Below, piece by piece: positions 33,763 through 63,398 of a stretch of DNA of 64,000 bases (position 1 is its first letter; every line of letters begins with the position of its first letter). The notes under the pieces were generated by a model. It saw nothing but the letters and a program-made list of their open reading frames with translations, had not been told where the DNA came from and made no database searches. This stretch comes from Candidatus Omnitrophota bacterium (GTDB taxonomy: Bacteria; Omnitrophota; Gorgyraeia; Duberdicusellales; 4484-171), in NCBI GenBank assembly GCA_024231025.1, contig JAAEQW010000006.1, positions 236 to 64,235 on the forward strand, given 5' to 3'. The translations under genes were made by a program, and so were the position numbers.

Positions 33763-36700
33763 ATGAGTCAAAACCGAAATTTACTATTTAAAAAAGCTTC
33801 TATATCTTTCAGGGCAATCGGCACATTTGTTGCAATAGCCTTTGTTGGTAGTATCTTTCTATCTAATTTACCAAAACAACAAAGTATACCTGAAGCTTCT
33901 ACTGTTTATAATCTACCCTCGCCTACTGAAATATTACCTTTGTCAAAAGAGTATTCTTATCCATTACTGAAAGGGATCCGCTTTGATCCCAAAAACCCTT
34001 TAAATCTTGAATTTATTATCGATACCACCAATGAAAGTGATGTTGGCGAAGAAGAAGCTTCTCGTCTTGTAAAGTATTTTTTAGCTGGATTGACCCTTCC
34101 TGAAAAGGACTTGTGGGTTAATTTATCACCTTACGAGAAGACAAGAGTTGCTTCAGACAACTTGGCATTAACAGATTTAGGAAAAGATATGTTAAATCAG
34201 GATTATGTTCTAAAGCAACTTCTTTCTTCTCTCACTTATCCCGAAAGTAAAGTAGGCAGAGATTATTGGCAAAAAACTTACCAAGAAATAGCTAAAACTA
34301 TCGGTACAACCAATATCCCAATTAACACTTTCAATAAAGTCTGGATTGTGCCTAATAAATGTGTTCTTTATGAAAGCGGTAATGCAGCGTTTGTGAAAGA
34401 GGCAAGCATGAAGGCGTTGATAGAGCAAGATTACACTGCTTTGCAAGGTAACCAGCCATCAGGCAATAGACAACAGGTTGTAGACCAAAACAAAGTGGAA
34501 AAGATTATATCGCGGATAATGAAAGAGACAGTTTTGCCAAAAGTGCAAGACGATATTAATCATGGAGAGAATTTTGCAACTTTAAGACAAATATACCACT
34601 CTATGGTTTTGGCAATATGGTTTAAGCAGAAGTTTAAACAGTCGTTTTACAAGTATTACATTAATCAAGAGAAGGTTGGTGGAATCGATTTAGAAGATAA
34701 AGATGTTAAAGAAAAAATTTATAATCTTTATGTTGAAGCCTATAAAAAAGGCGTGTATGACTACATTAAAAAAGATTATGACGTCTCTGGAAGGAAATAT
34801 TTAAATCGAAGATATTATTCCGGCGGCATTAATGTGCCGACACAGGAAACGGTTGATGTGATAAGAATTGGTGAACTAGAAAAGAAGGTCTTAGAGCTCG
34901 AGCAACAAGGCGAGTATAAAAAGGTAAAGACTTTATGCGCGGTTTATAGTGAAACTCAACATCAAAAAGATGATACGTTAATAGATAAAGCCTATAAGGC
35001 TGGGAATTTCCGGAGAGTCGATGATGACGTAATTGATGAAGTAAGCGTATTATTTCGAGAATTAGGCGAAAATGGCGAACTTATAGCCCAGAAGCTAGAT
35101 GATCTTAGAAAGCAAGGGGGAATAAATCTTGTATTGGGTATTCCTCATTCCCATGCAGGCGGTAAAGGTATTCATATACAAGTTGGTGATTTACACAAAG
35201 TTAACAAAAATTACGTACGAGATAAGTTAATCCATGAAGCAATAGCCGGCACAATTTTTGGCCATTCAGGTAAAGTGCATAATTTGGCGATAGGTGTGGT
35301 AGAAGCACTAAATAGGGATACAGCAGAAGCAAGAAGGGTTTTAAATGAACTCGAAGGATTTTCTTTTGCTGAAGATGGTAAAGTCTTATGGGAAATGACG
35401 CAAGCCGAACGTGATGGGTTAGTTAGAGATTATGCAAACGCGGCACATAAATTAGAGAATCTAACTTTGTCTTTAGAAGAAGTAGAGAAAGTAGACGCTC
35501 TTTTTGATGAAAAAATCAAAAAGGGGCTGGAGAAGATATATTCAAACATCAAAAGAGGTGTGTCTTTTCGGCAAGTACTGGAACATTTCGCCTCCGAAGA
35601 TACTCCTATTGGAGAGGAAAGGCTAGTTCATAGCACAGATGAGATTGTTCTGGATATGTTGCGGGATGATTCATTGTATCCTGAAGGAATTGAAGTTCGG
35701 TTTTTACGGATACGTGAGACTAACGATTGGATATTAATAAAATGCAGAGAAACTGAACTATATCGACGTGGGATCTCTGATGTCCCGGGGTCGATGCAAC
35801 CTCTCTTTATGCCGTATAAGGAGAATCAAGCTGCAATGCATTATTACTTCGATATCGATATTCATAGCCATAACGACGACCAACCACTCCCAAATATCCG
35901 TGATCTTTGGGAGTGCTATTCGAGAAGTTCGGGGCAGCAATCACTGTTTTTGATCAAAGGAAGAAAGGGAGTAACCGCAATAAATTTAACCAAGGCGGTT
36001 GGCCGAGTAACTGACGATGATTTCAAAGTGATTTTATGTAATGTAGTGCGAGATTTACAAAACATGCTGACGAAGAGGGAAGATGAAACGATATCTCCTC
36101 ACGAAAAAACACCAAGAATTTTTATCGAAGCTGCGCTGGATCAGTTAGAAAAGCACGAGGACTTATTAACCCGAAAATTTATTCCATGGTCTGATTTTAC
36201 TTTAGATCATTTAAAAAGTCGGTCGTTTCAACTAAGTGATGTTTTGCAATCGCAGGATAGGGGGGAACAGAGACTGGCGGCAATTGCAGTTCTTCGGGTT
36301 TTATCAACGCAGGTTAATTATGATTTTAAAGTGGCGATGTTTCGAAAAATAATTGATGTTTCCGACTGGAAGTTTCAATTACAAATTCTCGACGTTCTTT
36401 ACCGTTACTTTGAACCCGGACAAGAAATGAACAATGCTTATGATTTATTTTTGCAGTTGCCATCGCCGATTGTCCAAGCTGTGGCCAGCTTGCAAGGTTC
36501 ATCAAATGCACTTTTTGATCGCCATGGAACAAGAAAGTCTCGAAAAGTTATTGATGACGAAGCAACCGTTATGGCTGATGAGTTTTTGACATATAAGATT
36601 AAAATCATGTTGTCGAATAGCCTAAGTAATAGCTTGACTATTGCGGCCAGTTTGGACGAAGAAGATCTGGCGCAAATCGACAGGGAGCTCTTGCTGCAGT

Positions 36701-37614
36701 ACCTTGATCGACTAACTAAAGCCGGAATAAGCCGAGAAGGAAAGCAAGATGTGTTGGTTCTTTGCGCAAGGCACCTTAGAGAAGAGTGGGGTTTAGGCGA
36801 TACAGAAGATAAGGAATTAAGTGACCCGAAAGTATCACAGCGAGAGAACCACGATAATAAACTTGAGCACATATATAAACAGAATCCCAATAATGTAACC
36901 GCGGTGCTTCCGTGGACTACAAAGGAAGTGGTTGAGCTATTTCGCAAAATAGATGATGACGGGCAGTGCCCGTTGGCGAGCAAGCTTGCTGATAAAATAG
37001 AGTTGTTACTGGGAAGTCGAGATCCATTGAGATCTCAAGGCAGGTATTTTAGTAGAGACGGAAAAAAGATCATTAGAAGCCGGATCAACATTGTCCGCGG
37101 CATTGACCGCTCTCATGCTGGGGGAATGGGGATAAATATTATGGCTCGAGAAATTAGGCCGATAGACGAGGATGAAAAATATATTAAGGGAACTATTATT
37201 CACGAAGCAGTCGCGGGTACAATTTTTGGCGATTCTGAAAAAGTGCATAATTTAGGACTGGAGTTAGAACGAGCATTAATTAATGGAAGATTTGGTATAG
37301 CAGCTGATTTATTAAATAGCCTCTCTGGTGTTGCCCCGCATCCATCTGGCCGTGCGCTTTGGGAAATGACTCAGGAACAAAGGAATGAATTGGGCAGAGA
37401 CTATGCAAGCCCAAATGATATCGATGATGCTGGATTTGGTGGGTTAGATTTGACTGCTGATTCTTTTGCTATACAAATCGAAGGCGAGAACGAAAATATT
37501 GAATCTGGTGAATCTTTTTACCAGGATTTTGATCGGCTCAGTTTAAAAGATGTATTTATTGAAGATATCTCTTCTTCTGAACTCGCCCAGAGCTTCTTCC
37601 CAAATAATAATTAA
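33763..37614 (+). CDS. P1: 1283-aa signal-anchored envelope protein with a family-specific N-domain and two internal ~110-aa repeats carrying SHAGG and HEAxAGTIFG motifs
   Basis: An N-terminal TM helix is followed by the conserved domain (YNLPSPTEILPLSKEYSYPLLKG...NRRYYSGG). Repeats lie at aa ~455-565 and ~1095-1215. The acidic C-terminus carries GGLDLTADSF. Confidence 0.7.
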   Translation: MSQNRNLLFKKASISFRAIGTFVAIAFVGSIFLSNLPKQQSIPEASTVYNLPSPTEILPLSKEYSYPLLKGIRFDPKNPLNLEFIIDTTNESDVGEEEASRLVKYFLAGLTLPEKDLWVNLSPYEKTRVASDNLALTDLGKDMLNQDYVLKQLLSSLTYPESKVGRDYWQKTYQEIAKTIGTTNIPINTFNKVWIVPNKCVLYESGNAAFVKEASMKALIEQDYTALQGNQPSGNRQQVVDQNKVEKIISRIMKETVLPKVQDDINHGENFATLRQIYHSMVLAIWFKQKFKQSFYKYYINQEKVGGIDLEDKDVKEKIYNLYVEAYKKGVYDYIKKDYDVSGRKYLNRRYYSGGINVPTQETVDVIRIGELEKKVLELEQQGEYKKVKTLCAVYSETQHQKDDTLIDKAYKAGNFRRVDDDVIDEVSVLFRELGENGELIAQKLDDLRKQGGINLVLGIPHSHAGGKGIHIQVGDLHKVNKNYVRDKLIHEAIAGTIFGHSGKVHNLAIGVVEALNRDTAEARRVLNELEGFSFAEDGKVLWEMTQAERDGLVRDYANAAHKLENLTLSLEEVEKVDALFDEKIKKGLEKIYSNIKRGVSFRQVLEHFASEDTPIGEERLVHSTDEIVLDMLRDDSLYPEGIEVRFLRIRETNDWILIKCRETELYRRGISDVPGSMQPLFMPYKENQAAMHYYFDIDIHSHNDDQPLPNIRDLWECYSRSSGQQSLFLIKGRKGVTAINLTKAVGRVTDDDFKVILCNVVRDLQNMLTKREDETISPHEKTPRIFIEAALDQLEKHEDLLTRKFIPWSDFTLDHLKSRSFQLSDVLQSQDRGEQRLAAIAVLRVLSTQVNYDFKVAMFRKIIDVSDWKFQLQILDVLYRYFEPGQEMNNAYDLFLQLPSPIVQAVASLQGSSNALFDRHGTRKSRKVIDDEATVMADEFLTYKIKIMLSNSLSNSLTIAASLDEEDLAQIDRELLLQYLDRLTKAGISREGKQDVLVLCARHLREEWGLGDTEDKELSDPKVSQRENHDNKLEHIYKQNPNNVTAVLPWTTKEVVELFRKIDDDGQCPLASKLADKIELLLGSRDPLRSQGRYFSRDGKKIIRSRINIVRGIDRSHAGGMGINIMAREIRPIDEDEKYIKGTIIHEAVAGTIFGDSEKVHNLGLELERALINGRFGIAADLLNSLSGVAPHPSGRALWEMTQEQRNELGRDYASPNDIDDAGFGGLDLTADSFAIQIEGENENIESGESFYQDFDRLSLKDVFIEDISSSELAQSFFPNNN

Positions 37615-51125: not shown

Positions 51126-53726
51126 TTAGAAAGATTCTGAATAGTGTTGGGGGATACTTTCAATCTCTTCTGTGTGGTGGACAGTAAAGTTAATGCCTTT
51201 TAATTCGCTGGGGGGGAATAAAAGAAGAGGCTGATTCGCATAAATATTATAATCAAAGCTGCCTTTACGCTTAATTTTGGTTTCCAAATCAATGCCGCCA
51301 TGAGAACCATCTTTTAGGGCCGAACCCATATCTTTGCCCTGAACATCTTCCGCTCTTTTTGCAGGATCGGTTATTCCTGCTGGAAGATTATCTAACTGTG
51401 TGGCATTAAATGAATGTGAGCTAGAAGCAAAATACATACTCTCCATCATGTATTTTAACCGAGTTGGACCAGTCGGATCAGGTAAAAAGGTACCTCTTTC
51501 TCGATCGTAATTTAAATATAAACATCCCCAGCTACCATCATTATTATCAATAGCAATCTGCAAAAAAGTATCATTATATCCTTTCGGAAAAGATGGCGTT
51601 GGTTCATTTTTATCTGAACCAATACCGAGTCCCCACATACGTCCGAAATGCGTCGGAGATAAATTAGCGACTTCACCTTCTAAAAATAATGTGTGTGTTT
51701 TTTGTTGACCAGTTGCAGGGTCAACTGTATCATACATAACCTTAGTATACTTTTTACCGTCATACTCATAACCATAAGCAGCAAAATAACGCAAGGCAAT
51801 CGCCTCTAACGTCTTGTCACCCATCGAATAATCTATTTCGGCCTCAAACTCCAAATCAAGTCCATAAACAGTTTCGGTTGGACTTATCTTTTCTGCTCTG
51901 TGTTGCAGATACTGCTCATATGCACGAACTGTGCCCTCAGGAATTCTCTGCGCTTTGGCCTGAGTTTCAGTAATCAGACCCTCTTTTAACGATTCGTCTA
52001 CAGCCATGTTGTGAGAAAACATCCAATTATACCCTCGCTTTCGCCAATGCAATTCTACGGTATCGTGGAAAATTTCTTTATATAAATCATCTTCACTCAA
52101 TTCTTCCAAGTCAACCTCAAAGCAAATAATTATTACTCGTCCATCGTCGGTGATAATATTAATTGTCTGCAACCCATCTTCACGGATTACTGTTTCTTTT
52201 AATCTTTGAATTAACGGACTATTTCCAACTAGTGATAATGGGATCACCTCAACATCTGCTGAATCCAAAACCTTAACTTTTTGCCATTTGCCATCAGCCG
52301 TTTCCATAAAGACTTCGTTCTTATGCCCCCATGCATTATCCACTGATGCAAAGGCTCCCTTTAAAGCATTGATCCGGTTAAGGTTTCTTCTTATTCCTAA
52401 ATTGGGGTCGTGGGTATCGCTATTTTCATCAGTTGCTGCAAGCAATTTTAATATTAAATCGCGCTCATCTTGTTCATCGGAATCCGGAATTAATTCGCGT
52501 ACCGCATTCACAAAACCATGCCTTACAGATATGTCTCCTCTGATGTTTCCTCCTACATCCGGCGTACCATCTCCGGTAATTTTTAATGGGTCACCCTTAA
52601 CATTTTCCCCTATCGCTTTTGCCGCTCCTTGGGAACGTGTGCTCTTTTTTTCGATTCTTTCACTGCATGCAAGAGTAGCTCCGCCAGAATAATACTTTCT
52701 GCGAATAGGCTTATGAGATCCGACGTTTCTTTCTCGTTTGATAAAATTATAAACCCCCTTCTCATAGGCGAGATTATACTGTTCGTACACCTTTTCTTTA
52801 ATCTGAGAATCAGAACACTCTACGCCAGCAATCTTTTTCTGATCGGTATAAATTTGATTTAAAAGTGCGGTCTTTAAATGATTCTTATACCATAAAGCTA
52901 AAATAACCGAGTTTACTGCCTGCCTTATCGGAGTAAAAGATCGATTACGATTAACTTCTTGTTCTACTTCAGGTAAAATAATTTCTTTGGTTATTTGTGC
53001 AGAAATGCTCTGAGCATCTTCACTTTTTTTATCGACCCCTTTTCTAAGATAATCTTTGCTTCTCCTCATCGCCAAATAATCTGCCTCTAATAATACTTTC
53101 AACTTCGGTTTAGTAAGAAATGCTTTATTTCCATCTTCGTATACCACGATTTCCTCAGGCTTAATCCACACTTTGTTAAAAGTACTAATTGGAATGTTTG
53201 TAGTACCAAATTTTTTATAAACTTCTTGGTGTACGTTTTGCCAAAAAGTTTTACCCGGCTCTTCCTCTGGATAAGTTAAGGATGCCATTAGTTGTTTTAA
53301 AAGATAATCTTGAGTTAATAATTCTTTACCCAGGGTAGTTTTACCTAGTTCATCCGGAATAATCCGGTTACTCTCGTAAGGTGATAAGTTTACCCAAAGA
53401 TCCTCCTCAGGAATAGTTAAAGCAGCAAAAAAATACTCAATAAGCTCATCGGCTTTCTGTTTGACTTGATCCTTAGTTAGATCTCGATTATCACCGGTAT
53501 CAAGTATAAAACTAAACCGCCAAGGATTATTTTTGTCAATTTCAATGCCTACTAATATTGGCGGATTGCAAAGGCTAGTGGTTCTAACCATTCCCTCTGG
53601 TAGTGGCAGACTTTTTGAGGAATCACTAGAAGACACAGGGCTACTACACCCCAACAAAATCACCAAAAAACCACCGATCAAGGATTTAAAACAATTGCCT
53701 GAAAACACATTCTCTGTCATATACAA
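51126..53726 (-). CDS. P2: 866-aa predicted lipoprotein carrying the family N-domain and a unique C-terminal region
   Basis: It has the lipobox LVILLGC. The N-domain (LCNPPILVGIEIDKNNPWRFSFILDTG...RRKYYSGG) is about 45% identical to P1, P3 and P4 by eye. The C-terminus carries GGIDLETK. Confidence 0.7.
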   Translation of the reverse strand: MYMTENVFSGNCFKSLIGGFLVILLGCSSPVSSSDSSKSLPLPEGMVRTTSLCNPPILVGIEIDKNNPWRFSFILDTGDNRDLTKDQVKQKADELIEYFFAALTIPEEDLWVNLSPYESNRIIPDELGKTTLGKELLTQDYLLKQLMASLTYPEEEPGKTFWQNVHQEVYKKFGTTNIPISTFNKVWIKPEEIVVYEDGNKAFLTKPKLKVLLEADYLAMRRSKDYLRKGVDKKSEDAQSISAQITKEIILPEVEQEVNRNRSFTPIRQAVNSVILALWYKNHLKTALLNQIYTDQKKIAGVECSDSQIKEKVYEQYNLAYEKGVYNFIKRERNVGSHKPIRRKYYSGGATLACSERIEKKSTRSQGAAKAIGENVKGDPLKITGDGTPDVGGNIRGDISVRHGFVNAVRELIPDSDEQDERDLILKLLAATDENSDTHDPNLGIRRNLNRINALKGAFASVDNAWGHKNEVFMETADGKWQKVKVLDSADVEVIPLSLVGNSPLIQRLKETVIREDGLQTINIITDDGRVIIICFEVDLEELSEDDLYKEIFHDTVELHWRKRGYNWMFSHNMAVDESLKEGLITETQAKAQRIPEGTVRAYEQYLQHRAEKISPTETVYGLDLEFEAEIDYSMGDKTLEAIALRYFAAYGYEYDGKKYTKVMYDTVDPATGQQKTHTLFLEGEVANLSPTHFGRMWGLGIGSDKNEPTPSFPKGYNDTFLQIAIDNNDGSWGCLYLNYDRERGTFLPDPTGPTRLKYMMESMYFASSSHSFNATQLDNLPAGITDPAKRAEDVQGKDMGSALKDGSHGGIDLETKIKRKGSFDYNIYANQPLLLFPPSELKGINFTVHHTEEIESIPQHYSESF

Positions 53727-53778
53727 TTAATACCATTTTAATGGAACAAAAGCTATAAAATGGAGTGGTTTTTTAGGG

Positions 53779-53802
53779 TTTTTTGTAAGCGGTTACAAAA
53801 AA
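53779..53802. promoter_or_regulatory. Palindrome TTTTTTGTAA-gcgg-TTACAAAAAA, 64 nt upstream of P2
   Basis: It has perfect 10-bp arms. In gene orientation TTGTAA-N17-TAAAAA resembles a -35/-10 pair. It sits within a ~75-nt block conserved with the P4 leader. Confidence 0.55.
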
Positions 53803-53874: not shown

Positions 53875-56800
53875 TTACTTCCAGGAATTTACGGCAAGGT
53901 CATCGATAAATTCATAAGGGGATATATCACCCATGAAGGTAATTTCAAAAGTAAGCGTATCAAAATCCCCATCAATTATACGTAGGGGCGGGCCTTGTGT
54001 CCGCCCGTAATCTTCATCAAGACCTTCACCAACGGTTTCTAAATTAAAAGAATCTTGGGTTACATCAATACCGCCAACGCTATTAGCAGAAGGAGTATCC
54101 ACCTCTTTAACCTTATCGCCCTTATCTTGAAAATCAACAATCATATCTGCTGTAACTACATATAAGGCTTTAACTAGCTCTTGTAATGGCAGAGGACCAT
54201 TTACCGGACCTAAATCAGGATTAACATCATCAAAGTAATATCCTCTTTTTCCGTCTTTTTCCATAGTCTTAAAGCCTCTTGATCCTTCGTAACTTTCAGA
54301 ATAATCTGGGTTAACTTCATATAGTTCACTACGAATAGAATTCTTTATTAAATCATCTGCATATTCATCACCCTCTGCCATAAAATAAGCCATCTGTTTA
54401 GCTAGACGCTCCCAATTGATTAAATCAATTGTTCTGCCTGAAGCTTGCCTGCCACTAAAGCTAGTGTAGGCTTGCTCAAACATCTCTTTCATTATGCTTT
54501 GTAACTGATTGATACTTTCTATACTATCTATATCAAGCTGGTTGGTCTCTCTAAGATAACTACCAATCATAAGAGTTGAGGCAAAAAGATAATCTCCCAG
54601 ATAGCTTGCAAGGTAAAAGTTAGAAGCACTAGGACCAAATCTTTGTAGCGAATGTAGAATATCAGGTACATCTTTATTGCTAGGATTGGCTATATCCTCA
54701 AGATTAAAAACATTTGCAAAATCAGCTACTCCAGAAATTCTAGAATTAGGGTACTTAACTGAACTAGGCCAAGCATGAAGTCTTCCTGTGCCAGAACGAC
54801 TCATTACTTGTTGAATAATTGCAATCATCCATTGAAATCTTCTATTTTGGCCAAGGTTATGGAAGAGTTCAATTAAATCAGTATGGAGCAATCCGTGTCT
54901 ACCTAAGACAAAGAGATCATGGATTGAAGTCAAAAGAGCACCCTTGAACTGCTCAATATCTAATTCGCTATCGTTAAGATAAGTTAAGTAATCTTCATTA
55001 TCCAGTTCATAGGCCATAAGGGTGTAATGCTTATACCTATGGTCTGGGGTTAGAGCTTCTCCTTCCTTGCTGGCTTGACCATTAAGCGCCGCTAAGGCAC
55101 CCTCCGACAAAGAAGCAACTCTGTTTACTCTTTGACCATTTACTAATAAAGCTTTTGGGTATTGGCCTTTAAGCCCTAAATTGCCTTTATGCTGATAGAT
55201 ATATTCGATAAGCTGATGTTCATAAAACAAATCGTTAGGGTTTTCTTTATCCTTAAGGACTTTGACGCATAAAATCTTACCTTCCCTAGTTTTGTAAACC
55301 AAAGTTCTACCTTGAGCACGTAACAAAACAGCACCTTCTAGAAAACCGTCAAGACTATCTAATTTAGAAAACTCTTTTAACTGCCTAGCTTGTTTTTGAG
55401 GCAATTCAGAAGGTAAAACCTCTAGTTTAGGCGGCTGATTATCGCTTAATGCTGCTTCGCTATAAGTATTGTAGTTAGCCGGAGAATCTCCACCATCGCT
55501 AAAATCAATTGCATACAATCTAAAGGCCTGACGCATTAATTCAATGCTAATATCTCTCTCCTTTTTTCGCAAGTATTGAGCAAATTTAAAGAAATAACGG
55601 CTATCGTTCATAGCGCTATCAGCATCAGACATCCTTACACGCGATAACAAAACTAACTGCATCTCATCTTCCAAGGCTTCTAAAGCTTGATCAGGTGACA
55701 CACCATCTGTTATCATTTTGGCTAACTGAGAGTAAAATCTATCCTGATCTCCAGCTTCTCGAGCAAATCGATATATCCACTCAAATTCAGGAGTAAAGTA
55801 TTCGCTAGCTCTTTTTAAGGCTTGCGGGTCATCCTTTAATTCCTTTAAGAGCCTTATAAACGAATTAACAAAAATATTATCTAACTTTTTGCCACATATA
55901 GCTAAATAAGCATCTTTTAATTCCTTATAGCTAAATCCTTTTATATCTTCTTCACTAATTAAACCTGATTCTTTTAACGCATTTACTGCACGAGCAGCTG
56001 AATTTTGCTTTTGCCGATTTGAATTAGCTAAATCACCTATAAAAGTATTTATTGGGAGTCTACTCCTCACCTCATCCCTACTAATCAAACCAGTTTCGAT
56101 CAATGCCTTCATTAACCCGGCAGACATCTCTGGAACATGTTGATCTAGGCTAGTTAGATTAGTAATCAAATTACTTAATAACGGTTCATTCTTTATATCA
56201 TCCTCAGCAATCAATCCTGCTTCTGCCAATGTTTTTATTTTTGCAATGGCCGCATCTCTAACTTGCCAGCTTGAATCGATTATGTCACTAACCAAAGTAT
56301 CCATTGGAAACCTACTCTTTACTTCATTACTTTTAATAGATCCGATCTCTGCAACTGTTTCAGTAATTACTTGTTGCTCGTACCAATACGAATCAGTTAC
56401 CTTGCTAGCCAAAAGATCTATTGGAAGATCTGCTGGAAGTTCATCTTTCACTTCATCTCTACTAATCGAACCAGCCCTAATTAACGCTTCTATTACCCGA
56501 ACAGCTGCATCTTCAACGTCCGTGTATTGACTTTTTGAGGCAATGATTAGCTTGCTCAACAATGAATTATTTTTCATATCATCCTCGGTGATTAATCCAG
56601 CTTCTATCAAGGCTTCTAATGCCAAAAGGACTTGTTTTTTTGTTGATGGTATTAATCCATTAAGCTTATTTATTAAGATATCCAGCATTGGTATATCCTC
56701 AATATCATCTTTGCTAATAAGACCTGCACGTGCTAGCGCACTTATTGTCGAAACCCCACCAATTATCTCTAGCTGATTAAAACTACTCAAACGAATCACT

Positions 56801-58194
56801 AAATTATCTAAGGTCTCTAACCAAGCTACGGACCTTTCAATCTTAACCGCTTCTTCTTCAGACAAAGACTCACTACCCACAACACCATAATCAGTAATTT
56901 TACGACCTGATACCTGCTCTATGTGCTGAGTTGTTTGTTCTTTTTTGCGAGATTTTTCTCCGGGTAGATTCTTAGCACCTTTATGAATATCAGAACCTAG
57001 CCCCACCAAATCACCTATATCTCTAGCAATAGAAACTCCTTTGGGCAATTCAGTAACTACTTGCTGAAAATCTTCAACTTTCTTGTCAAAAAGAACACCA
57101 CCAGAATAATACCTTCTATTTAGTTTTTTATTAGTTGCAGGATCGTAATCTCTTCTTACGTAGTTATAAACACCCTTCTTATAGGCTTCGACATAGAGAT
57201 TGTAGATTTTCTCCTTTGCGCCCTTGTCCTCTAAGCCAATGCCCGAAATTTTGCCTTGGTCAATGTAATCTTTGTAAAAACTATCCTTAAATTTCTTTCT
57301 AAACCAGACTGCCAATACAAGTGCGTGGTATATTTGACGCAAAGTAGCAAAGTTTTCGCCATGGTTTACTTCCTGATTTATTTTAGGAAGAATTGTTTCA
57401 TTGAATATTTGGGATGTTATTTGGTCTATTTGATCTGGGGACTGTCCCATTTTTTTCGCAGAAAAAATAGGGACTGTCCCCTCTCTTAGGGAATTTTGCT
57501 GCACTGCAACATAGTCACGCTGATGCATAACCTTTAGGCTCGCTTCCAAAATAAATGCCGTGTTTGCCTTTTCATAGACAACACTTTTCTCCGGCATAAT
57601 CCAAACCTTATTATAAGTATTGATTGGCATATCCGATGTGCCAAATTGATCAGCTAATTGTTGATAAACCTGTTGCCAATATTCTTTGCCAGTTTCACTT
57701 TCGGGATAGGTTAAAGAAGAGACGAGTTGCTTCAAACAATAATCTTGCCCTAACATGTCTTTACCAAGATCAGTCAAAGCAAGATTGCCTGAAGCAACTC
57801 GGTCTTCTTCGTGTGGAGATAAGTTAACCCATAACTCCCCTTGCGGGAGGGTTAATCCAGCTAAAAAATATCTAATAAGCCGCGAGGCTTCTTCGCGGCT
57901 TACATTGTCCTTACTAGAGGTATCAACAATAAATTCGATATTTAAAGGATTCTTGGGACTAAATCGTAGCCCCTTAAGCAATGGATATGAGTAATCTTTC
58001 GATAATGGAAGCAACTTAGTCGGCAGCGGTAAACCATAAACCGCAGCTTGCGCAGTCCTGAGCTTGCCGAAGGAGAGTTGGCGATTACGCAATATTGTAG
58101 GCAGTATAATACCTACAAAAATAGCTATAGCTAAAAATATAGCAATAAATTTAAACGGAATTGTACCTTTTCGTAATATCTTTACATGAGCCAT
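53875..58194 (-). CDS. P3: 1439-aa signal-anchored protein with the family N-domain, about six ~35-aa helical (HEAT/ARM-like) repeats and the shared C-terminal tail
   Basis: An N-terminal TM helix is followed by the N-domain (...KKLNRRYYSGG). Repeats of the form GLI(S/T)xDD/EV(K/R)...L occur at aa ~480-760. The C-terminus carries VGGIDVTQDSFNLETVGEG. Confidence 0.7.
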   Translation of the reverse strand: MAHVKILRKGTIPFKFIAIFLAIAIFVGIILPTILRNRQLSFGKLRTAQAAVYGLPLPTKLLPLSKDYSYPLLKGLRFSPKNPLNIEFIVDTSSKDNVSREEASRLIRYFLAGLTLPQGELWVNLSPHEEDRVASGNLALTDLGKDMLGQDYCLKQLVSSLTYPESETGKEYWQQVYQQLADQFGTSDMPINTYNKVWIMPEKSVVYEKANTAFILEASLKVMHQRDYVAVQQNSLREGTVPIFSAKKMGQSPDQIDQITSQIFNETILPKINQEVNHGENFATLRQIYHALVLAVWFRKKFKDSFYKDYIDQGKISGIGLEDKGAKEKIYNLYVEAYKKGVYNYVRRDYDPATNKKLNRRYYSGGVLFDKKVEDFQQVVTELPKGVSIARDIGDLVGLGSDIHKGAKNLPGEKSRKKEQTTQHIEQVSGRKITDYGVVGSESLSEEEAVKIERSVAWLETLDNLVIRLSSFNQLEIIGGVSTISALARAGLISKDDIEDIPMLDILINKLNGLIPSTKKQVLLALEALIEAGLITEDDMKNNSLLSKLIIASKSQYTDVEDAAVRVIEALIRAGSISRDEVKDELPADLPIDLLASKVTDSYWYEQQVITETVAEIGSIKSNEVKSRFPMDTLVSDIIDSSWQVRDAAIAKIKTLAEAGLIAEDDIKNEPLLSNLITNLTSLDQHVPEMSAGLMKALIETGLISRDEVRSRLPINTFIGDLANSNRQKQNSAARAVNALKESGLISEEDIKGFSYKELKDAYLAICGKKLDNIFVNSFIRLLKELKDDPQALKRASEYFTPEFEWIYRFAREAGDQDRFYSQLAKMITDGVSPDQALEALEDEMQLVLLSRVRMSDADSAMNDSRYFFKFAQYLRKKERDISIELMRQAFRLYAIDFSDGGDSPANYNTYSEAALSDNQPPKLEVLPSELPQKQARQLKEFSKLDSLDGFLEGAVLLRAQGRTLVYKTREGKILCVKVLKDKENPNDLFYEHQLIEYIYQHKGNLGLKGQYPKALLVNGQRVNRVASLSEGALAALNGQASKEGEALTPDHRYKHYTLMAYELDNEDYLTYLNDSELDIEQFKGALLTSIHDLFVLGRHGLLHTDLIELFHNLGQNRRFQWMIAIIQQVMSRSGTGRLHAWPSSVKYPNSRISGVADFANVFNLEDIANPSNKDVPDILHSLQRFGPSASNFYLASYLGDYLFASTLMIGSYLRETNQLDIDSIESINQLQSIMKEMFEQAYTSFSGRQASGRTIDLINWERLAKQMAYFMAEGDEYADDLIKNSIRSELYEVNPDYSESYEGSRGFKTMEKDGKRGYYFDDVNPDLGPVNGPLPLQELVKALYVVTADMIVDFQDKGDKVKEVDTPSANSVGGIDVTQDSFNLETVGEGLDEDYGRTQGPPLRIIDGDFDTLTFEITFMGDISPYEFIDDLAVNSWK

Positions 58195-58280: not shown

Positions 58281-58302
58281 TTTTTTGTAAGCGGTTACAA
58301 AA
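58281..58302. promoter_or_regulatory. Palindrome TTTTTTGTAA-gcgg-TTACAAAAG, 98 nt upstream of P3
   Basis: It has the same core and the same orientation relative to the gene as the P2 and P4 sites. Confidence 0.55.
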
Positions 58303-58872: not shown

Positions 58873-59649
58873 CTATTTAATTTCTATGCTCGCAAGCATC
58901 ATCTCTAAATCGTCTTTATAACCTGCGTATTCGACGGATTTACAGGTAAATTCTAGCCAGTAACTATCATCACCATCCAAAACTATAGCCACAAATGTTG
59001 TTAATAAAGCTCCACCCTCATTACATTCATACACCGCACGAACCACCTCGCGACCGTTAATAACCGTCTCTAAAAGCGCTTCTGTTTCCGTAGCCCCGAT
59101 CATTCTTAAGGTCATGTTTATGGTCATTTTCGCCATATCCACCGAACCGCCACTCTTTTTTGAAAAAGTTACCTCTGGATTATTTATGTCACTAGCTATA
59201 CCAGGCTGATGGGAATATGCCGTAAGTATGGGGGCAGCGGTTAAAGCTAGCTCTACCATCTCCGCAGGAACTCTTGATAAAAAATACTCATCTTTTCTAA
59301 GCTGCGCTTGTTTTTCTTCTTTAGATACAGTAAACCAACCCTGGGGGATGTTTATTCTTGCTTCGGCAGCATCAAAAACAATTACATCAGGCTGCTCTGC
59401 ATTTTCTAACACTAAATCATTGCCTGATTGCATGACATCAAAAGAGCTTTCGCGATCAAATGAACTAGCATCTTCCTTGTAATATGTTAGCGGAACTCCA
59501 TCAATTTCAACTTTTATATATTCATTGGTTTCTTCGGTAACCGTGCCCTCTACGGTCTGCCCATTTGGCAATTTTATAATCTCGCCATAACAAAAACTGA
59601 CAATGTTGCAAAAAGCAAAAAGCACAACACAAATATTTAACATATGCAT
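58873..59649 (-). CDS. Secreted hypothetical protein with the shared N-terminal module
   Basis: A signal peptide is followed by EIIKLPNGQTVEGTVTEETNEYIKVEIDGVPLTYYKEDA. Confidence 0.45.
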   Translation of the reverse strand: MHMLNICVVLFAFCNIVSFCYGEIIKLPNGQTVEGTVTEETNEYIKVEIDGVPLTYYKEDASSFDRESSFDVMQSGNDLVLENAEQPDVIVFDAAEARINIPQGWFTVSKEEKQAQLRKDEYFLSRVPAEMVELALTAAPILTAYSHQPGIASDINNPEVTFSKKSGGSVDMAKMTINMTLRMIGATETEALLETVINGREVVRAVYECNEGGALLTTFVAIVLDGDDSYWLEFTCKSVEYAGYKDDLEMMLASIEIK

Positions 59650-59882: not shown

Positions 59883-62800
59883 TTAATTCCGTGTTTTTTC
59901 CTTTTCTAACAAAGCTTTCACGCCTTTTCCGTCTCTGATTGTCGACACCCTGATCCCTTTTAAATTTTTAAATCGATTAATTAATTTTGGTGACCAGTTA
60001 TATTTAATGGTTCCATCGGCTTTAACTAAATCATCTAACACAATGCCACCTAACCCATTATTGGGCTGTTTTTTTTCCTCCGTTCCTGCTGAAAGAAGGC
60101 TTTTCCAATCACGTTGTGGTAAATACTCCTCACTTTCAGCGAAATATTTTTCTCCTTTATTTGTATGTTCTCCCCCGGGATTATGCGATTTGAATGGTGT
60201 TTTATCACGGCCCCAACTATTCAATAGGACTACACCCATCGGAGAAAGTCCAGATATATGAGATTTTCTCCCTCTAGCTTGAGACAAATGAACCACAAAA
60301 TCAAAATCACCGAGAAAAGTTACCCCTTGTTTATGATCTTCTCGCAAATCAATCATAAATGTATTTGTTTCTATTCCGGCTCTCCTAGCAGAATCAACCA
60401 ATGCAAAAGGTACACTAGCATCACCCCCTGCAAAATCAACAGTCGCAATGCTATAACCCACCTCTTCAATTCTTGCTCTAACAGATGGTACTTTTTCGAT
60501 CGTATTTATTTCAGAATTAACATGGAATGCTCCGATTAATACTACTACTCGGAAATCTTTATTTTCTTCTAGCACTTCTTCAAGCTCCTGGCACAGGTAC
60601 TCTTCTCTTTCTCCTTCAGTAGGATTATGTTTTTGCTGGTCTATATCTATCTGAACTATTTTAATTCCAACAGCGACAAAAGCTCTAACTAGCTCCTCTT
60701 CTCTCACATTAGGACCCACTTCAGCATGCGTTAAAGTTACTGCTTGCCCCTCATTTAAGTCATCAATATTTTTAGTTTTATGAGTTTCAACTGCTAAATG
60801 AGTAATTCCCATTTCTTTAAATTCTTTAGCATGCCTAGCTAGATGTTCACTTATATCCCCATTGTCGTGCATATCACCCATAAATAAAATCTGACGATTA
60901 CCCAATATTTTTCTATAGTTAACTGGTTCTTGGTTTCTGATCAATCTGGCAGCTGCATCATCATAATTATTCCATAAATCATCCACATCTCTGCGCTCAG
61001 CAACCTTTGTTGGCATATCTGGTGGGTCTATTACTTTTTCAATATTTCTATCTAGCATAGACTTGCCATTGCTCGAAGTATTGCTTACAGACTGTTCTTG
61101 CTGTTGACCCGATATCTTTTTTAAACTACTCCACCAACTTATCCTAAGTGCCCCTTCTTTATTCGTTATTTCGCCTTCAATATGGTAATCATCAATACGT
61201 CTTATTGTTATAGTTAAGGCATCGCCAGCATCTGCTTTTCGTAAGGTATGCTCGTTTACTTTTCTATATTTTTCTTCGTACCCTTCTTCTCGCAATGAAT
61301 TAAGAACTTGTTCATATAAAGCATCTGGTATAAGTTCATAATCACCACCTTTTGAAATCCTATCGGACTCAATAGTATATGTAAAACTTGTAAAAGGGGC
61401 TTCTTTGCGCCATCGTTTTAATTCTTCATTATATCTTTCGACTGCCTTAGAGAGATTAATTGGAATAGCTCTATTATCATTAGCATTCTTTTTTAGCATC
61501 CCTGTCGGACTCAAGACAAAAAGCATTGAATCACCTTGCTGAGAATAACCTGGAAAAATACTTACAATATCTCCTGTTTCGATATCAAAATCCAGTTGTA
61601 TTACCCCTCTATTGGTTATAGCACTGCCTCCATCTCCTATAATCGTAAAATTATCTGCCTCTATGCTTTCTCGTAGTAACGCTAAATTCTTTTTTATAAC
61701 TGAATTGCCTTCTTCCATTCCTGGTAATCTTTGTTGGGGGAAAGAGGGCATCTCTTCTGAAGCATTTATTTTGGGATCAGCATATTCCAATGTAGCTAAA
61801 ACATATTGTGCCCATGCTGCCCGCCAGTCAGAATAATAATTTTCTACTATTTCGGTATGCATATCCCAGTCCACATATAAAGTATTATTTTCAACGTCTA
61901 TAAAAGCCATTAAATCTTCTATTGCGCCTACCCTACTAACTGTAGCGAGTGCCTGTGTATTATTAATAAAATCTCGGAGTAGATATATCTTAATGCCCTT
62001 TTTCATCAGAATACCTTGCGGATCATGAATACCATAGGCTCCGCCGCCATCTGGATATAATTCTGATATAGATAAAGCCCTTTCAAGCAGTTCTTTATCT
62101 AGCTCTTCTCTGTAGGCGGCAGCTATTTTTTTAACAACTTCGTTTTGTTCTGGGGTTAATGTTCTACCATCTCGACAAATAGCCATATAGCCTTGACCTG
62201 ATTCAGTAAAGTTATCTATATTAGCAATTTCAACAAGTTTTGTTGGCATACCGGCTGCGGCTTTAATTTCACCAGCATCCGGTCTGGTTTCCGTTACATC
62301 TTTTAGGACATGACCTCCGGAATAATATCGACGATTTACTTTTTTACGACTAGCTTGATCATAGTCTTTTTTGATGTAATCATATACACCTTTTTTGTAG
62401 GCGTCCACGTAAAGATTGAAGATTTTCTCCTTGGCGTCTTTATCTGCAATATCAATACCTTCGATTTTACCCTGGTCAATGTAATATTGAAAAACAGAGT
62501 CTTTGAGCTTTTTCTTAAACCAGCAAGCTAAAACAAAAGAATCATACATCTGCCGTAAAGTAGCAAAGTTTTCACCCTCGTTCACATCTCGTTCGATTTC
62601 CGGTAAAATTATTTCCTTTAAAACTTGAGAGGAGATCTTATTAATTTCTTCTTGGTTTCCATCAACAATAGATTGTTTGTGGTTTAGTGGTTTTGATAAA
62701 GCTAGATAGTCTTCTTCAGACATTGCTTTTAATTTAGTTTCATCGATGAGTACAATGTTTCCTTTTTCTACGAGTTCGGCGGTTTCAGGGACAATCCAAA

Positions 62801-63398
62801 CTTTATTGAATGTATCTATGGGAATATTTGTTGTGCCAATGGCTTTATGTATCTTCTTATATATTTTATTCCAATACCTCTTGCCTAACTCATTTTCAGG
62901 GTAGGTCAAAGTAGATACCAGTTGCTTTAAAATGTAATCTTCTTTTAATAAGTCTTTGCCTAAATCAGTTATTGCCAGGTTATCGGAGGTTACCCTGTCT
63001 TGTTCGTGGGGCGATAAGTTTACCCATAAATCTTCTTCGGGTATCGTAAGCGCAGCTAAAAAATAATTAACCAGTCTGATCATCTCTTTGTCGCTTATAT
63101 CCTCTTGGTCAGCTGGATCAATTATAAACTCAAACTTGAAAGGATCATTTGGATCGATCTTTAATCCTTTTAGTGATGGTTGCGAATGCACTTTAGAAAG
63201 AGGCACTAATGTTGTAGGTGCAGGTAAATTATATACCGATTCTTTAGCTGTTTGGATAGACTTTAACCGCAACAGATTAGGCCTACTAGCAGTCATAAAA
63301 ACCAAGCTAATCATTATGCAAGCTGCCACTCCTAAACATGCAAATTCAAATAATGTAGTGCCTTTTTTCATAATATTTACCCTAGAGTATCGTATCAT
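59883..63398 (-). CDS. P4: 1171-aa signal-anchored protein with the family N-domain and a C-terminal region carrying GxxH...GAxH motifs (tentatively TIKI/ChaN-like)
   Basis: An N-terminal TM helix is followed by the N-domain (...KKVNRRYYSGG). The C-terminal region has ILFMGDMHDNGD...LIGAFHV. An alternative start lies at 63371 (MKKGTT). Confidence 0.65.
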   Translation of the reverse strand: MIRYSRVNIMKKGTTLFEFACLGVAACIMISLVFMTASRPNLLRLKSIQTAKESVYNLPAPTTLVPLSKVHSQPSLKGLKIDPNDPFKFEFIIDPADQEDISDKEMIRLVNYFLAALTIPEEDLWVNLSPHEQDRVTSDNLAITDLGKDLLKEDYILKQLVSTLTYPENELGKRYWNKIYKKIHKAIGTTNIPIDTFNKVWIVPETAELVEKGNIVLIDETKLKAMSEEDYLALSKPLNHKQSIVDGNQEEINKISSQVLKEIILPEIERDVNEGENFATLRQMYDSFVLACWFKKKLKDSVFQYYIDQGKIEGIDIADKDAKEKIFNLYVDAYKKGVYDYIKKDYDQASRKKVNRRYYSGGHVLKDVTETRPDAGEIKAAAGMPTKLVEIANIDNFTESGQGYMAICRDGRTLTPEQNEVVKKIAAAYREELDKELLERALSISELYPDGGGAYGIHDPQGILMKKGIKIYLLRDFINNTQALATVSRVGAIEDLMAFIDVENNTLYVDWDMHTEIVENYYSDWRAAWAQYVLATLEYADPKINASEEMPSFPQQRLPGMEEGNSVIKKNLALLRESIEADNFTIIGDGGSAITNRGVIQLDFDIETGDIVSIFPGYSQQGDSMLFVLSPTGMLKKNANDNRAIPINLSKAVERYNEELKRWRKEAPFTSFTYTIESDRISKGGDYELIPDALYEQVLNSLREEGYEEKYRKVNEHTLRKADAGDALTITIRRIDDYHIEGEITNKEGALRISWWSSLKKISGQQQEQSVSNTSSNGKSMLDRNIEKVIDPPDMPTKVAERRDVDDLWNNYDDAAARLIRNQEPVNYRKILGNRQILFMGDMHDNGDISEHLARHAKEFKEMGITHLAVETHKTKNIDDLNEGQAVTLTHAEVGPNVREEELVRAFVAVGIKIVQIDIDQQKHNPTEGEREEYLCQELEEVLEENKDFRVVVLIGAFHVNSEINTIEKVPSVRARIEEVGYSIATVDFAGGDASVPFALVDSARRAGIETNTFMIDLREDHKQGVTFLGDFDFVVHLSQARGRKSHISGLSPMGVVLLNSWGRDKTPFKSHNPGGEHTNKGEKYFAESEEYLPQRDWKSLLSAGTEEKKQPNNGLGGIVLDDLVKADGTIKYNWSPKLINRFKNLKGIRVSTIRDGKGVKALLEKEKTRN

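What the first reader, a model, noticed from the sequence alone, without database searches (positions are those of the whole stretch)
33763..63398. Four-member family of large envelope proteins with a shared unassignable N-domain, variable central cargo and a shared C-terminal tail
P1 (33763-37614, +), P2 (51126-53726, -), P3 (53875-58194, -) and P4 (59883-63398, -) each begin with a TM anchor or lipobox. A ~310-aa domain follows in all four, and I cannot assign it to any family I know. Conserved blocks include WVNLSPYE, DLGKD(M/L)LxQDY(L/V)LKQL, TYPE, TTNIPIxTFNKVWIxPE, GENFATLRQIY, VLAxWFK, KEKIYNLYVEAYKKGVY and NRRYYSGG. The central regions are unrelated to one another: P1 has SHAGG/HEAxAGTIFG repeats, P3 has HEAT-like repeats, P4 a GxxH...GAxH region, and P2 a unique region. 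All four end with an acidic tail containing GG(I/L)(D/V)(L/V)T.DSF-like residues. Constant termini around variable middles resemble polymorphic surface or effector families. Each gene also has its own copy of a palindromic regulatory site, and the family sits beside tRNA-Ser genes at both loci. I cannot identify the domain, which may make it a new family.
Basis: seen in the sequence. Interest (0 to 1): 0.85.

Follow-up and report, generated by a model that had tools for sequence, protein, structure and literature searches.

The report
Omnitrophota modular exported protein family
Four neighbouring genes belong to a very large, undescribed protein family of the tiny, probably predatory Omnitrophota bacteria, in which an export signal, a conserved 310-residue front module of unknown fold and a conserved 60-residue end-piece frame a freely exchangeable middle, most likely a shared handling device for proteins sent to the cell surface or into a host cell.

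Summary
P1-P4 are intact ORFs. They share a positional ~310-aa N-domain (42-59% identity, BLASTP E 1e-77 to 1e-131), have unrelated middles and end in a GG(I/L)(D/V)(L/V) tail.

The window is from Candidatus Omnitrophota, and the family is phylum-wide:
- 8,374 clusters at 50% identity match the N-domain profile, always once and always at the N-terminus.
- At least 585 genomic copies occur in species-representative genomes, several per genome and often in tandem.
- About 80% of complete members carry a conserved C-terminal ~60-aa module (GGIDLNP...GFxPVIINITPV...LLLG). The window's tails are degenerate versions of it. Modelled alone it is an extended peptide, not a domain.
- Cargo is almost completely replaced, even between members whose N-domains are 80-86% identical.
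- Recognisable cargo is cytoplasm-type: a SidJ-like glutamylase in P3, plus sugar-phosphate enzymes, methyltransferases, and Ank, HEAT and WD40 repeats elsewhere.
- Most members have classical cleavable Sec signal peptides.

Best reading: a Sec-exported cargo-carrier family, probably effectors or surface display, co-regulated here through a shared palindrome. The function is inferred, not shown.

The parts
33763..37614 (+). P1, family member (1283 aa): signal-anchor, N-domain, cargo with a duplicated module, C-terminal module
33814..33864 (+). P1 N-terminal hydrophobic segment (aa 18-34), preceded by K/R residues
33913..34827 (+). P1 N-domain (aa 51-355, LPSP...RRYYSGG). AF2 pLDDT 83 and pTM 0.84; no known fold
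35035..35442 (+). P1 cargo, copy 1 of the duplicated SHAGG / HEAxAGTIFG / LWEMTQ module (aa ~425-560)
   Evidence: 40% identity to copy 2, E 6e-30
36958..37410 (+). P1 cargo, copy 2 of the duplicated module (aa ~1066-1216)
37438..37611 (+). P1 C-terminal module, degenerate (GGLDLTADSF...)
51126..53726 (-). P2, family member (866 aa; TTG start, ATG at 53720): lipoprotein signal, N-domain, unique cargo, degenerate tail
53646..53657 (-). P2 lipobox LLGC (aa 24-27), followed by a Ser-rich linker
52680..53609 (-). P2 N-domain (aa 40-349)
51129..51299 (-). P2 C-terminal module, degenerate (GGIDLETK...LKGINFTV); positional match only
53875..58194 (-). P3, family member (1439 aa): anchor, N-domain, helical repeats, SidJ-like domain, C-module
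57097..58032 (-). P3 N-domain (aa 55-366)
55915..56697 (-). P3 cargo: ~42-aa helical (HEAT-like) repeats with the motif xAGLI(S/T)xDD (aa ~480-760)
   Evidence: (HEAT E 0.14)
54151..55449 (-). P3 cargo: SidJ-like kinase-fold (glutamylase) domain, aa ~916-1348
   Evidence: PDB 7mir E 6.8e-25; NF033873 E 5.5e-28, below the family cut-off
53878..54075 (-). P3 C-terminal module (GGIDVTQDSF...FDTLTFEITF); the best-supported tail in the window
59883..63398 (-). P4, family member (1171 aa)
62313..63227 (-). P4 N-domain (aa 58-362)
60477..60914 (-). P4 cargo region with GDMH...GAFH motifs. Only faint Pfam hits (HopBA1 E 0.037, DUF5682 E 0.031); unassigned
59886..60050 (-). P4 C-terminal module, degenerate (GGIVLDD...LKGIRVST); positional match only
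33664..33679 (+). Palindromic site upstream of P1 (TTGAAACCGCTTACAA, 1 mismatch)
53783..53798 (-). Palindromic site upstream of P2 (TTGTAACCGCTTACAA)
58285..58300 (-). Palindromic site upstream of P3
63458..63473 (-). Palindromic site upstream of P4
33725..33732 (+). Conserved AAATGGTA (extended -10-like) element, ~45 nt downstream of the P1 palindrome
53731..53738 (-). The same -10-like element for P2. It lies within a 76-nt promoter module that is 95% identical to that of P4
58232..58239 (-). The same -10-like element (AAATGTTA) for P3
63406..63413 (-). The same -10-like element for P4
33274..33368 (+). tRNA-Ser(CGA), 395 nt upstream of P1 on the same strand. The same synteny is seen in L029
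63749..63840 (-). tRNA-Ser(UGA), 351 nt upstream of P4 on the same strand. The same synteny is seen in L043

Best explanation
P1-P4 are four co-regulated paralogues of a phylum-wide Omnitrophota family of Sec-exported modular proteins.

Each member has four parts:
- an N-terminal signal: a cleavable AxA|Q signal peptide in most members; in this genome a signal-anchor (P1, P3, P4) or a lipobox (P2);
- a highly constrained ~310-aa N-module of unknown fold;
- an interchangeable cargo region of 100 to more than 4,500 aa;
- a ~60-aa C-terminal peptide module (GGIDL...GFxPVIINITPV...LLLG) followed by a short acidic tail.

I read the two constant ends as a common handling device. It would be recognised by, or would itself form part of, conserved envelope machinery, and so would anchor, sort or deliver whatever cargo sits between the ends.

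The recognisable cargo is of a kind that needs ATP or nucleotide sugars, or that acts as an intracellular scaffold. Examples are a SidJ-like glutamylase, PGM/PMM, iPGM, UDPGP, FBPase, methyltransferases, PP2C, HATPase, and Ank, HEAT and WD40 repeats. Yet the proteins carry export signals. The most likely role is therefore as effectors (or contact-surface proteins) that act on or in the host or prey cell of these ultra-small, host-dependent bacteria.

New cargo would be acquired by recombination between the conserved ends.

Shown: the architecture, the coupling of the two ends, cargo replacement, the export signals, the lack of any known homologue, and the shared operator.

Inferred: export beyond the inner membrane, delivery to another cell, and the roles of the two end modules.
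For: Family size and position. 920 word-index hits, all named ones from Omnitrophota. At least 585 tblastn-confirmed genomic copies, several per genome and in same-strand tandem arrays. 8,374 representative clusters (6,817 at E<=1e-30), with the domain always at residues ~5-440 and single copy.

The N-module is strongly constrained: 35 invariant columns across 49 diverse sequences.

No known relative, by sequence or by fold.

The C-module is present in 58 of 69 complete loci members and in 111 of 143 representatives. It is always within 74 aa of the C-terminus and never occurs without the N-module. Apparent tail-only ORFs are frameshifted 3' ends of family genes.

Modelled alone, the C-module is an extended peptide (pTM 0.25, almost no secondary structure). 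That fits a recognition or docking peptide.

The two ends co-vary (Spearman 0.54), while only about 5 of 1,485 pairs share any cargo homology, even at 80-86% N-domain identity.

Export signals. 118 of 130 representatives have a hydrophobic segment and 114 of 130 an AxA-type site just before LPxPG. Across the 118 with a hydrophobic segment there are 427 K/R residues before it and 66 after. P2 has a lipobox.

Cargo types. The P3 SidJ-like domain retains the equivalents of SidJ K367, N534, D542, H492 and R500 in the printed alignment (the residue roles are from my memory of the 2019 SidJ papers).

Co-regulation. The palindrome and the -10-like box occur at all four genes and nowhere else in the window.

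Lifestyle context: Omnitrophota are inferred to be host-dependent or predatory (PMC10066038; bioRxiv 10.1101/2023.11.21.568195).
Against: No experimental localisation exists.

No secretion system or dedicated partner gene is conserved next to family genes in 80 loci. None is present in this 64-kb window.

Most cargo has no recognisable domain, so 'cytoplasm-type' rests on a minority of members.

In this genome P1, P3 and P4 lack a clean signal-peptidase site. P3 and P4 also have basic residues on both sides of the hydrophobic segment, so their topology is less certain than in canonical members.

The P2 and P4 tails are not individually significant.

No immunity-like genes follow the family genes.
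Confidence: 0.5

Rival explanations
1. Structural surface coat or adhesin family. The C-terminal peptide of one molecule docks by strand addition onto the N-module of the next. This would build a head-to-tail (hetero)polymer on the cell surface that displays variable middles for attachment or antigenic variation.
For: The C-module does not fold alone. The ends co-vary. There is a GGID(L/I) motif inside the N-module as well as at the start of the tail. There are several paralogues per genome with compatible ends. Velamenicoccus is described as having an extracellular coat (PMC10066038).
Against: Among the most frequently matched Pfam families listed for 76 scanned members there are no adhesin-type domains such as Ig, cadherin or lectin. 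The listed families are enzymes and intracellular-type repeats (each listing shows only the first 25 families). Several different tail subtypes coexist in one genome.
Confidence: 0.2
2. An envelope-resident toolbox for the bacterium's own use. The proteins would stay tethered in the inner membrane or periplasm, with the N-module as a membrane-proximal scaffold. The cargo would work on the cell's own envelope or on imported sugars, and would not be delivered to another cell.
For: There are signal-anchor and lipobox versions in this genome. Sugar-phosphate enzymes recur as cargo. Family genes sit among housekeeping genes.
Against: ATP- or UTP-dependent enzymes, response-regulator receivers and a SidJ-like glutamylase have no obvious energy source or substrates in a periplasm. 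Wholesale cargo turnover is atypical for housekeeping functions.
Confidence: 0.2
3. The N-module is itself an enzyme or ligand-binding domain, for example acting on lipid or peptidoglycan, and is the real function. The middles would then be accessory.
Against: There is no sequence or fold similarity to any enzyme. The strict N-terminal position and the coupling to a C-terminal peptide suit a handling module better.
Confidence: 0.1
4. The similarity is compositional, or the ORFs are not real genes.
For: None found.
Against: E-values down to 1e-131 with positional alignment. Thousands of homologues exist. The structure model is confident.
Confidence: 0

Closest known systems
MARTX toxins (multifunctional autoprocessing RTX toxins of Vibrio and relatives)
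   Same: Conserved N- and C-terminal regions frame an exchangeable central array of effector domains. Effector content differs between close relatives through recombination.
   Different: MARTX toxins have Gly/Asp-rich RTX-type repeats, a C-terminal T1SS signal, a cysteine protease domain and no Sec signal. None of these was detected here: there are no Pfam hits and there is a Sec signal instead. There is no sequence or fold relationship.
Type IX secretion cargo proteins (Sec signal + functional domains + conserved C-terminal domain)
   Same: An N-terminal Sec signal, arbitrary functional domains and a short conserved C-terminal sorting element shared by many paralogues in one phylum.
   Different: The T9SS CTD is an autonomous Ig-like beta-sandwich (PMC11285876). 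The tail here models as an extended peptide and has no Pfam match. T9SS cargo has no conserved N-module. T9SS itself is known from Bacteroidota and the FCB group, not from Omnitrophota.
LapA-like giant RTX adhesins (N-terminal retention module + C-terminal secretion signal)
   Same: A conserved N-terminal module proposed to hold the protein at the envelope, a variable middle and a conserved C-terminal signal.
   Different: LapA-type proteins lack a Sec signal, use T1SS and carry RTX repeats. Their middles are adhesive repeats, not enzymes.
Polymorphic toxin / effector systems (CdiA, Rhs, LXG, Myxococcus SitA lipoproteins)
   Same: A constant trafficking module is combined with hypervariable payloads. 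Genomes carry several copies. SitA has a lipobox plus an N-terminal escort domain, as in P2's layout.
   Different: In those systems the variable part is the C-terminal end and is followed by an immunity gene. Here it is internal, a conserved C-module follows it, and the downstream genes are housekeeping.
Omnitrophota giant proteins ('archaeovorins' and dockerin-type; West-Roberts et al. 2023, bioRxiv 10.1101/2023.11.21.568195; bioRxiv 10.64898/2026.06.07.730766)
   Same: The same phylum. N-terminal regions without identifiable domains next to signal peptides. The same kinds of cargo (methyltransferase, HATPase, PGM, receiver). A PilZ gene lies downstream in L081. At least 9 family ORFs in the loci exceed ~3,680 aa and run off the fetched DNA.
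   Different: Those papers do not describe this N-module or C-module. Their giants have tens of TM helices and SecA-like domains, which P1-P4 lack. Whether the >10,000-aa giants start with this N-module was not tested.
Legionella SidJ (calmodulin-dependent glutamylase) - for the P3 cargo only
   Same: Homologous kinase-like domain (E 6.8e-25 over ~430 aa). The equivalents of K367, N534, D542, H492 and R500 are conserved in the alignment.
   Different: The score is far below the NCBIfam family cut-off (97.8 vs 400 bits). D545 aligns with N and Y506 with F. No calmodulin-binding IQ region is evident. The domain is embedded in the Omnitrophota N/C frame.

Membership tests
Any curated protein family for the N-domain (Pfam-A 2025, NCBIfam 20.0) | Profile match at or near the curated threshold | tested here: not met
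   The four full proteins at E<=1 give only scattered chance hits. For 49 N-domains at E<=5, no family is matched consistently; the best is DUF896, in 9 of 49 at E>=0.029.
Any solved structure (N-domain) | Sequence-profile or fold similarity to a PDB chain | tested here: not met
Sec-dependent exported protein | Basic n-region, hydrophobic h-region and an AxA-type cleavage site (or a lipobox) | tested here: met
   By regular-expression census, not SignalP. 118 of 130 representatives have an h-region and 114 of 130 have an AxA-like site within 14 aa before LPxP; K/R counts are 427 before and 66 after. P2 has an LLGC lipobox. P1, P3 and P4 look like uncleaved anchors.
T9SS cargo (Por_Secre_tail / CTD) | C-terminal autonomous Ig-like beta-sandwich domain with a Pfam/TIGRFAM match | tested here: not met
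   The AF2 model of the tail with 102 sequences has pTM 0.25 and no strands of 3 or more residues. No Pfam or NCBIfam hit.
MARTX / RTX toxins | RTX nonapeptide repeats, a cysteine protease domain, and no Sec signal | tested here: not met
   No RTX (HemolysinCabind) or Peptidase_C80 hits for P1-P4, and none among the most frequently matched families listed for 76 further members (only the first 25 families are shown). Sec signals are present.
Polymorphic toxin systems (CDI, Rhs, LXG) | A variable C-terminal toxin domain immediately followed by a cognate immunity gene | tested here: not met
   The variable part is internal and a conserved C-module follows it. Downstream genes are a CPBP protease, a PHO4 transporter and the next family gene.
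SidJ family (P3 cargo) | Homologous kinase-like glutamylase domain | tested here: met
   PDB 7mir, 6plm and 6k4k at E ~1e-24 over ~430 aa. NF033873 at E 5.5e-28.
SidJ family (P3 cargo) | Score above the NCBIfam curated cut-off (subfamily membership) | tested here: not met
   97.8 bits against a cut-off of 400; 81.6 against 300 for the SidJ-related pseudokinase model.
SidJ family (P3 cargo) | Catalytic residues of both nucleotide pockets (K367, N534, D542; H492, R500, Y506 - roles recalled from the 2019 structural papers) | tested here: inconclusive
   In the printed alignment the K, N, D, H and R equivalents are conserved. D545 aligns with N and Y506 with F. The mapping was done by hand from chain numbering.
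SidJ family (P3 cargo) | C-terminal calmodulin-binding IQ helix | not tested
   The alignment ends before the SidJ C-terminal domain. No search for an IQ motif was made.
TIKI / ChaN / EreA-like superfamily (P4 cargo; a lead from the GxxH...GAxH motifs and my recollection that HopBA1 resembles this fold) | Profile or fold match | tested here: inconclusive
   Only faint Pfam hits: HopBA1 E 0.037 and DUF5682 E 0.031. No PDB sequence hit at E<=1.
HEAT repeats (P3 cargo) | Pfam HEAT-type repeat matches above threshold | tested here: inconclusive
   HEAT E 0.14, 13 bits against a cut-off of 23.5. A ~42-aa periodic xAGLI(S/T)xDD motif is visible.

The most novel reading that the evidence does not exclude
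The N-module and the C-terminal peptide together define a previously unrecognised protein sorting and delivery route specific to Omnitrophota. After Sec export, the two ends dock to each other or to a dedicated envelope receptor. They would then carry essentially arbitrary cargo, from 100-aa domains up to the multi-thousand-residue proteins typical of the phylum, to the cell surface and into the host or prey cell. That would make this the main effector-delivery platform of these predatory nanobacteria.
Probability: 0.3. Interest if true: 0.9.

Novelty: new variant of a known kind. Interest (0 to 1): 0.72.

Why it matters
Omnitrophota are ubiquitous, uncultured, ultra-small bacteria thought to live on other cells. 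How they act on their hosts is unknown. The literature so far centres on their giant proteins, whose N-terminal regions have no identifiable domains.

This family gives a concrete, searchable handle. A 310-aa N-module and a 60-aa C-module mark thousands of exported proteins, several per small genome. In this window they make up 14.3 kb of 64 kb.

If the two ends are a sorting or delivery device, three things follow:
- The family catalogues the phylum's effector repertoire, including a SidJ-like enzyme outside Legionella.
- It explains how new cargo is plugged in.
- It provides two short targets, the N-module and the GGIDL peptide, for structural, proteomic and interaction studies.

The N-module also appears to be a new fold, and it is absent from Pfam and NCBIfam.

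Tried and rejected
1. Pfam and NCBIfam on the four proteins and on 49 N-domains at permissive thresholds gave nothing consistent.
3. The tail-alone structure had pTM 0.25, so I did not run a fold search with it.
4. I looked for a conserved neighbouring gene (secretion system, protease or immunity gene) by clustering all ORFs of 80 loci plus the window. Only a heterogeneous set of receiver-domain proteins and histidine kinases recurs. The initial count of 15 loci came from a single-linkage cluster; only about 3 are true OmpR-type orthologues. I rejected this as a dedicated partner.
5. The CPBP and M48 proteases next to P1 are not conserved beside family genes elsewhere.
6. Tail-only small ORFs on long contigs looked like stand-alone tail proteins. 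They are frameshifted 3' ends of family genes.
7. The palindrome is absent from the 80 related loci, so the operator is lineage-specific.
8. The cargo of P1, P2 and P4 has no PDB sequence homologue and no homologue in the 80 loci.
9. A test of N/C docking by structure prediction was not possible.
10. Literature searches by topic and by literal motif strings (WVNLSP, GGIDLNP, KYFSGG and others) found no description of the family.

Full report
**1. Observation**

An alignment of the first ~400 residues shows a positional domain of about 310 aa following a hydrophobic N-terminus. Every quoted block is present, and there are more than 90 invariant columns among the four. All-against-all BLASTP gives 42-59% identity over 305-365 aa, with E-values from 7e-77 to 3e-131. 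tblastn finds exactly four copies in the window.

The regions after ...RRYYSGG share nothing with one another.

P1's cargo contains a genuine internal duplication of a ~150-aa SHAGG / HEAxAGTIFG / LWEMTQ module (40% identity, E 6e-30).

Each protein has GG(I/L)(D/V)(L/V) about 55-65 residues from its end:
- The P1 and P3 tails are significantly similar to each other (E 3e-4 to 2e-3) and to family tail profiles (P3 E 3e-4 to 2e-3; P1 0.02).
- The P2 and P4 tails match only positionally.

The palindrome TTGTAACCGCTTACAA lies upstream of all four genes and nowhere else in 64 kb, apart from one weak extra copy before P2. That is 9 strand matches against 0.93 expected. It is followed about 45 nt later by a conserved AAATGGTA, which looks like an extended -10 box. 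The P2 and P4 promoter modules are 95% identical over 76 nt.

tRNA-Ser(CGA) and tRNA-Ser(UGA) lie 395 and 351 nt upstream of P1 and P4 on the same strand.

**2. What it is**

The window comes from a Candidatus Omnitrophota genome. All named homologues are from that phylum, or from MAGs that NCBI labels loosely as Planctomycetales, plus one 'Ca. Elulimicrobium'.

The N-domain family is very large:
- 920 hits through the word index.
Several genomes contribute 3 to 8 or more loci to the best 80 alone, often as same-strand tandem arrays like P2-P3-P4.
- 8,374 clusters at 50% identity in the 1.84-billion-protein library (6,817 at E<=1e-30). In these the domain is always single and always at the N-terminus of proteins 420-4,969 aa long.
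- At least 9 family ORFs in the fetched loci exceed ~3,680 aa and run off the 10-kb flank.

The domain has no match in Pfam, NCBIfam or PDB sequences. An AlphaFold2 model built from 49 sequences is confident (pLDDT 83, pTM 0.84). It has three beta-hairpins and about eight helices, and it has no significant structural neighbour:
- Foldseek against PDB: best E 0.08, with TM<0.2.
- BFVD: best E 0.04.

**3. The tail is a family-wide C-terminal module**

I extracted 101 family ORFs from the 80 loci, of which 69 are complete. Fifty-eight of the complete ones end with GGIDLNPxxLdLqIkRDgnGvPLPlpqQpixxMxIdGFxPVIINItPVtNLPLLLG followed by a short, mostly acidic stretch.

Among 143 representative proteins, 111 have the module. 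It occurs once and within 74 aa of the C-terminus, with a median distance of 8 aa.

In the loci the module never occurs in a protein that demonstrably lacks the N-domain. The 12 apparent exceptions are ORFs cut by the locus edge, by N-runs or by frameshifts. Two 'tail-only' ORFs on long contigs turned out to be the frameshifted 3' ends of genes that begin with the N-domain.

Modelled alone with 102 sequences, the module has moderate local confidence. It has pTM 0.25 and essentially no secondary structure. So it is an extended peptide that probably needs a partner, not an autonomous domain.

The window proteins belong to a subfamily that also includes L002, L005, L059 and L060. This subfamily has LPxP(T/N/K/E) instead of LPxPG at the mature N-terminus and a divergent 'F-x-G-F-T-F-x-I-I' tail.

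**4. Constant ends, replaced middle**

For 55 complete members (1,485 pairs), N-domain identity and tail identity are correlated (Spearman 0.54). Only about five pairs show any cargo homology at BLASTP E<=1e-5. Pairs with 80-86% identical N-domains and 45-79% identical tails have completely unrelated cargo. The cargo of P1-P4 has no homologue in the 80 loci.

**5. Export signals and cargo types**

Canonical members have textbook Sec signal peptides. There are basic residues before the hydrophobic core (427 K/R before against 66 after, summed over the 118 representatives that have such a core). An AxA-type site, usually ...A-Q-A or Y-A-Q, lies 4-8 residues before LPxPG in 114 of 130 (this is a regular-expression census, not SignalP). 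In this genome P2 has a lipobox, while P1, P3 and P4 look like uncleaved signal-anchors.

Most cargo has no Pfam domain. Recognisable cargo from 76 scanned members and two extra loci includes:
- methyltransferases, HATPase_c, response-regulator receiver and PP2C;
- iPGM, PGM/PMM (several), UDPGP, PGI, FBPase and PPDK_N / glucan-water-dikinase-like domains;
- PRTase and peptidase M3;
- Ank, HEAT and WD40 repeats.

These are domains normally found in a cytoplasm. Classical adhesin domains were absent from the families listed (each listing shows only the first 25 families).

P3 aa ~916-1348 is homologous to the kinase-like glutamylase domain of Legionella SidJ (PDB 7mir E 6.8e-25; NF033873 E 5.5e-28 but far below the family cut-off). 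In the printed alignment the equivalents of SidJ K367, N534, D542, H492 and R500 are kept. D545 aligns with N and Y506 with F. The roles of these residues are from my memory of the 2019 structural papers.

**6. Context**

The window is otherwise housekeeping: LptF/G, SmpB, Dus, PHO4/PhoU, MgtE, an amidase, transketolase and others. No secretion system is present.

A CPBP protease and an M48 peptidase follow P1. They are not conserved next to family genes elsewhere, and no dedicated partner gene emerges from 80 loci.

A tRNA lies immediately upstream on the same strand in L029 (Ser-CGA), L043 (Ser-UGA), L025 (Pro) and L046 (Glu). The two Ser cases reproduce the window's arrangement and suggest old synteny rather than a general rule.

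**7. Mechanism**

I commit to the carrier reading. After Sec export, the invariant N-module and the C-terminal peptide act as a common handling device for interchangeable cargo, which works at the host-contact surface or inside the host or prey cell.

The steps that are shown are the architecture, the coupling of the ends, cargo turnover, the export signals and the shared operator.

The steps that are inferred are passage beyond the inner membrane, transfer to another cell, and whether the tail docks to the N-module or to other machinery.

The rivals are a head-to-tail surface polymer, an envelope-resident toolbox for the cell's own use, and an enzymatic N-module. They are not excluded and are scored in the report.

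**8. Comparison and novelty**

In working principle the family is closest to MARTX toxins (constant ends, central effector cassettes), T9SS cargo (Sec signal plus a C-terminal sorting element), LapA-type adhesins and polymorphic toxins. It fails the defining features of each (see the membership table) and shares no sequence or fold with them.

The three Omnitrophota papers I could read note N-terminal regions without identifiable domains in giant proteins. They do not describe this N-module or the tail. Literal motif searches of the paper library return nothing.

I therefore rate it as a new variant of a known kind, namely modular or polymorphic exported proteins. I give a 0.3 chance that it marks a categorically new sorting or delivery route.

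Noticed in passing
window 63488-63583, 63673-63768 and 58338-58433: A 96-nt element occurs in three copies. The two upstream of P4 are 97% identical, 185 nt apart, and each carries the last ~20 nt of tRNA-Ser(UGA) plus a terminator hairpin (ATCCGTCC...GGACGGAT). A 72% copy without the tRNA fragment lies upstream of P3. It looks like an att-like duplication of a tRNA 3' end or a small repeated terminator cassette.
   Followed up: partly
window 53729-53804 and 63404-63479: The P2 and P4 promoter modules (palindrome to -10-like box) are 95% identical over 76 nt, although the N-domains they drive are only ~45% identical. This suggests recent conversion of, or strong selection on, the regulatory cassette.
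   Followed up: partly
window 33457-33684 (+): An XRE-type helix-turn-helix-like reading frame (...KIKGLRIKAKLTQKDFA...) has no ATG, GTG or TTG start before codon ~49. Its stop codon lies just after P1's palindrome. It could be a decayed or non-canonically initiated regulator gene.
   Followed up: no
window 37871-38833 (+) and 38830-39624 (-): An Rce1/CPBP-type intramembrane protease and an M48 peptidase lie directly downstream of P1. They are not conserved beside family genes in other genomes.
   Followed up: partly
window 58873-59649 (-) and ~58466-58860 (-): Two small ORFs sit between P4 and P3. One is a 258-aa protein with an N-terminal hydrophobic signal and no Pfam match. The other is a ~131-aa protein with two hydrophobic segments. 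Neither has a homologue near family genes elsewhere.
   Followed up: no
L081 (CP070684.1, complete 1.28-Mb Omnitrophota genome) 10001-13240: The closest relative of P1 (64% identity in the N-domain) is split into three consecutive ORFs (541 + 160 + 315 aa) and is followed by a PilZ gene. West-Roberts et al. report the same neighbour downstream of giant genes.
   Followed up: no
L082 151-6920; L083 1464-10348: These family genes carry FBPase + PGM/PMM and PGI + PGM/PMM cargo and are interrupted by frameshifts, so the tail is annotated as a separate small ORF. Sugar-phosphate enzymes recur as cargo across the family.
   Followed up: partly
window 24158-26419 (-): A 753-aa protein combines an N-terminal zf-HC2 (anti-sigma-like) motif with vWF_A/VWA and YfbK_C domains.
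   Followed up: no
window 57875-57903: A strong 12-bp-stem hairpin (TAAGCCGCGAGG...CTTCGCGGCTTA) lies inside the P3 N-domain coding region and scores as terminator-like on both strands.
   Followed up: no
P1 aa 301-312 (window ~34663-34698) and the family consensus: The N-domain itself contains a K(V/I)xG(I/V)D(L/I)xD motif (KVGGIDLED in P1) that resembles the GGIDL start of the C-terminal module. The tail HMM picks it up weakly.
   Followed up: no
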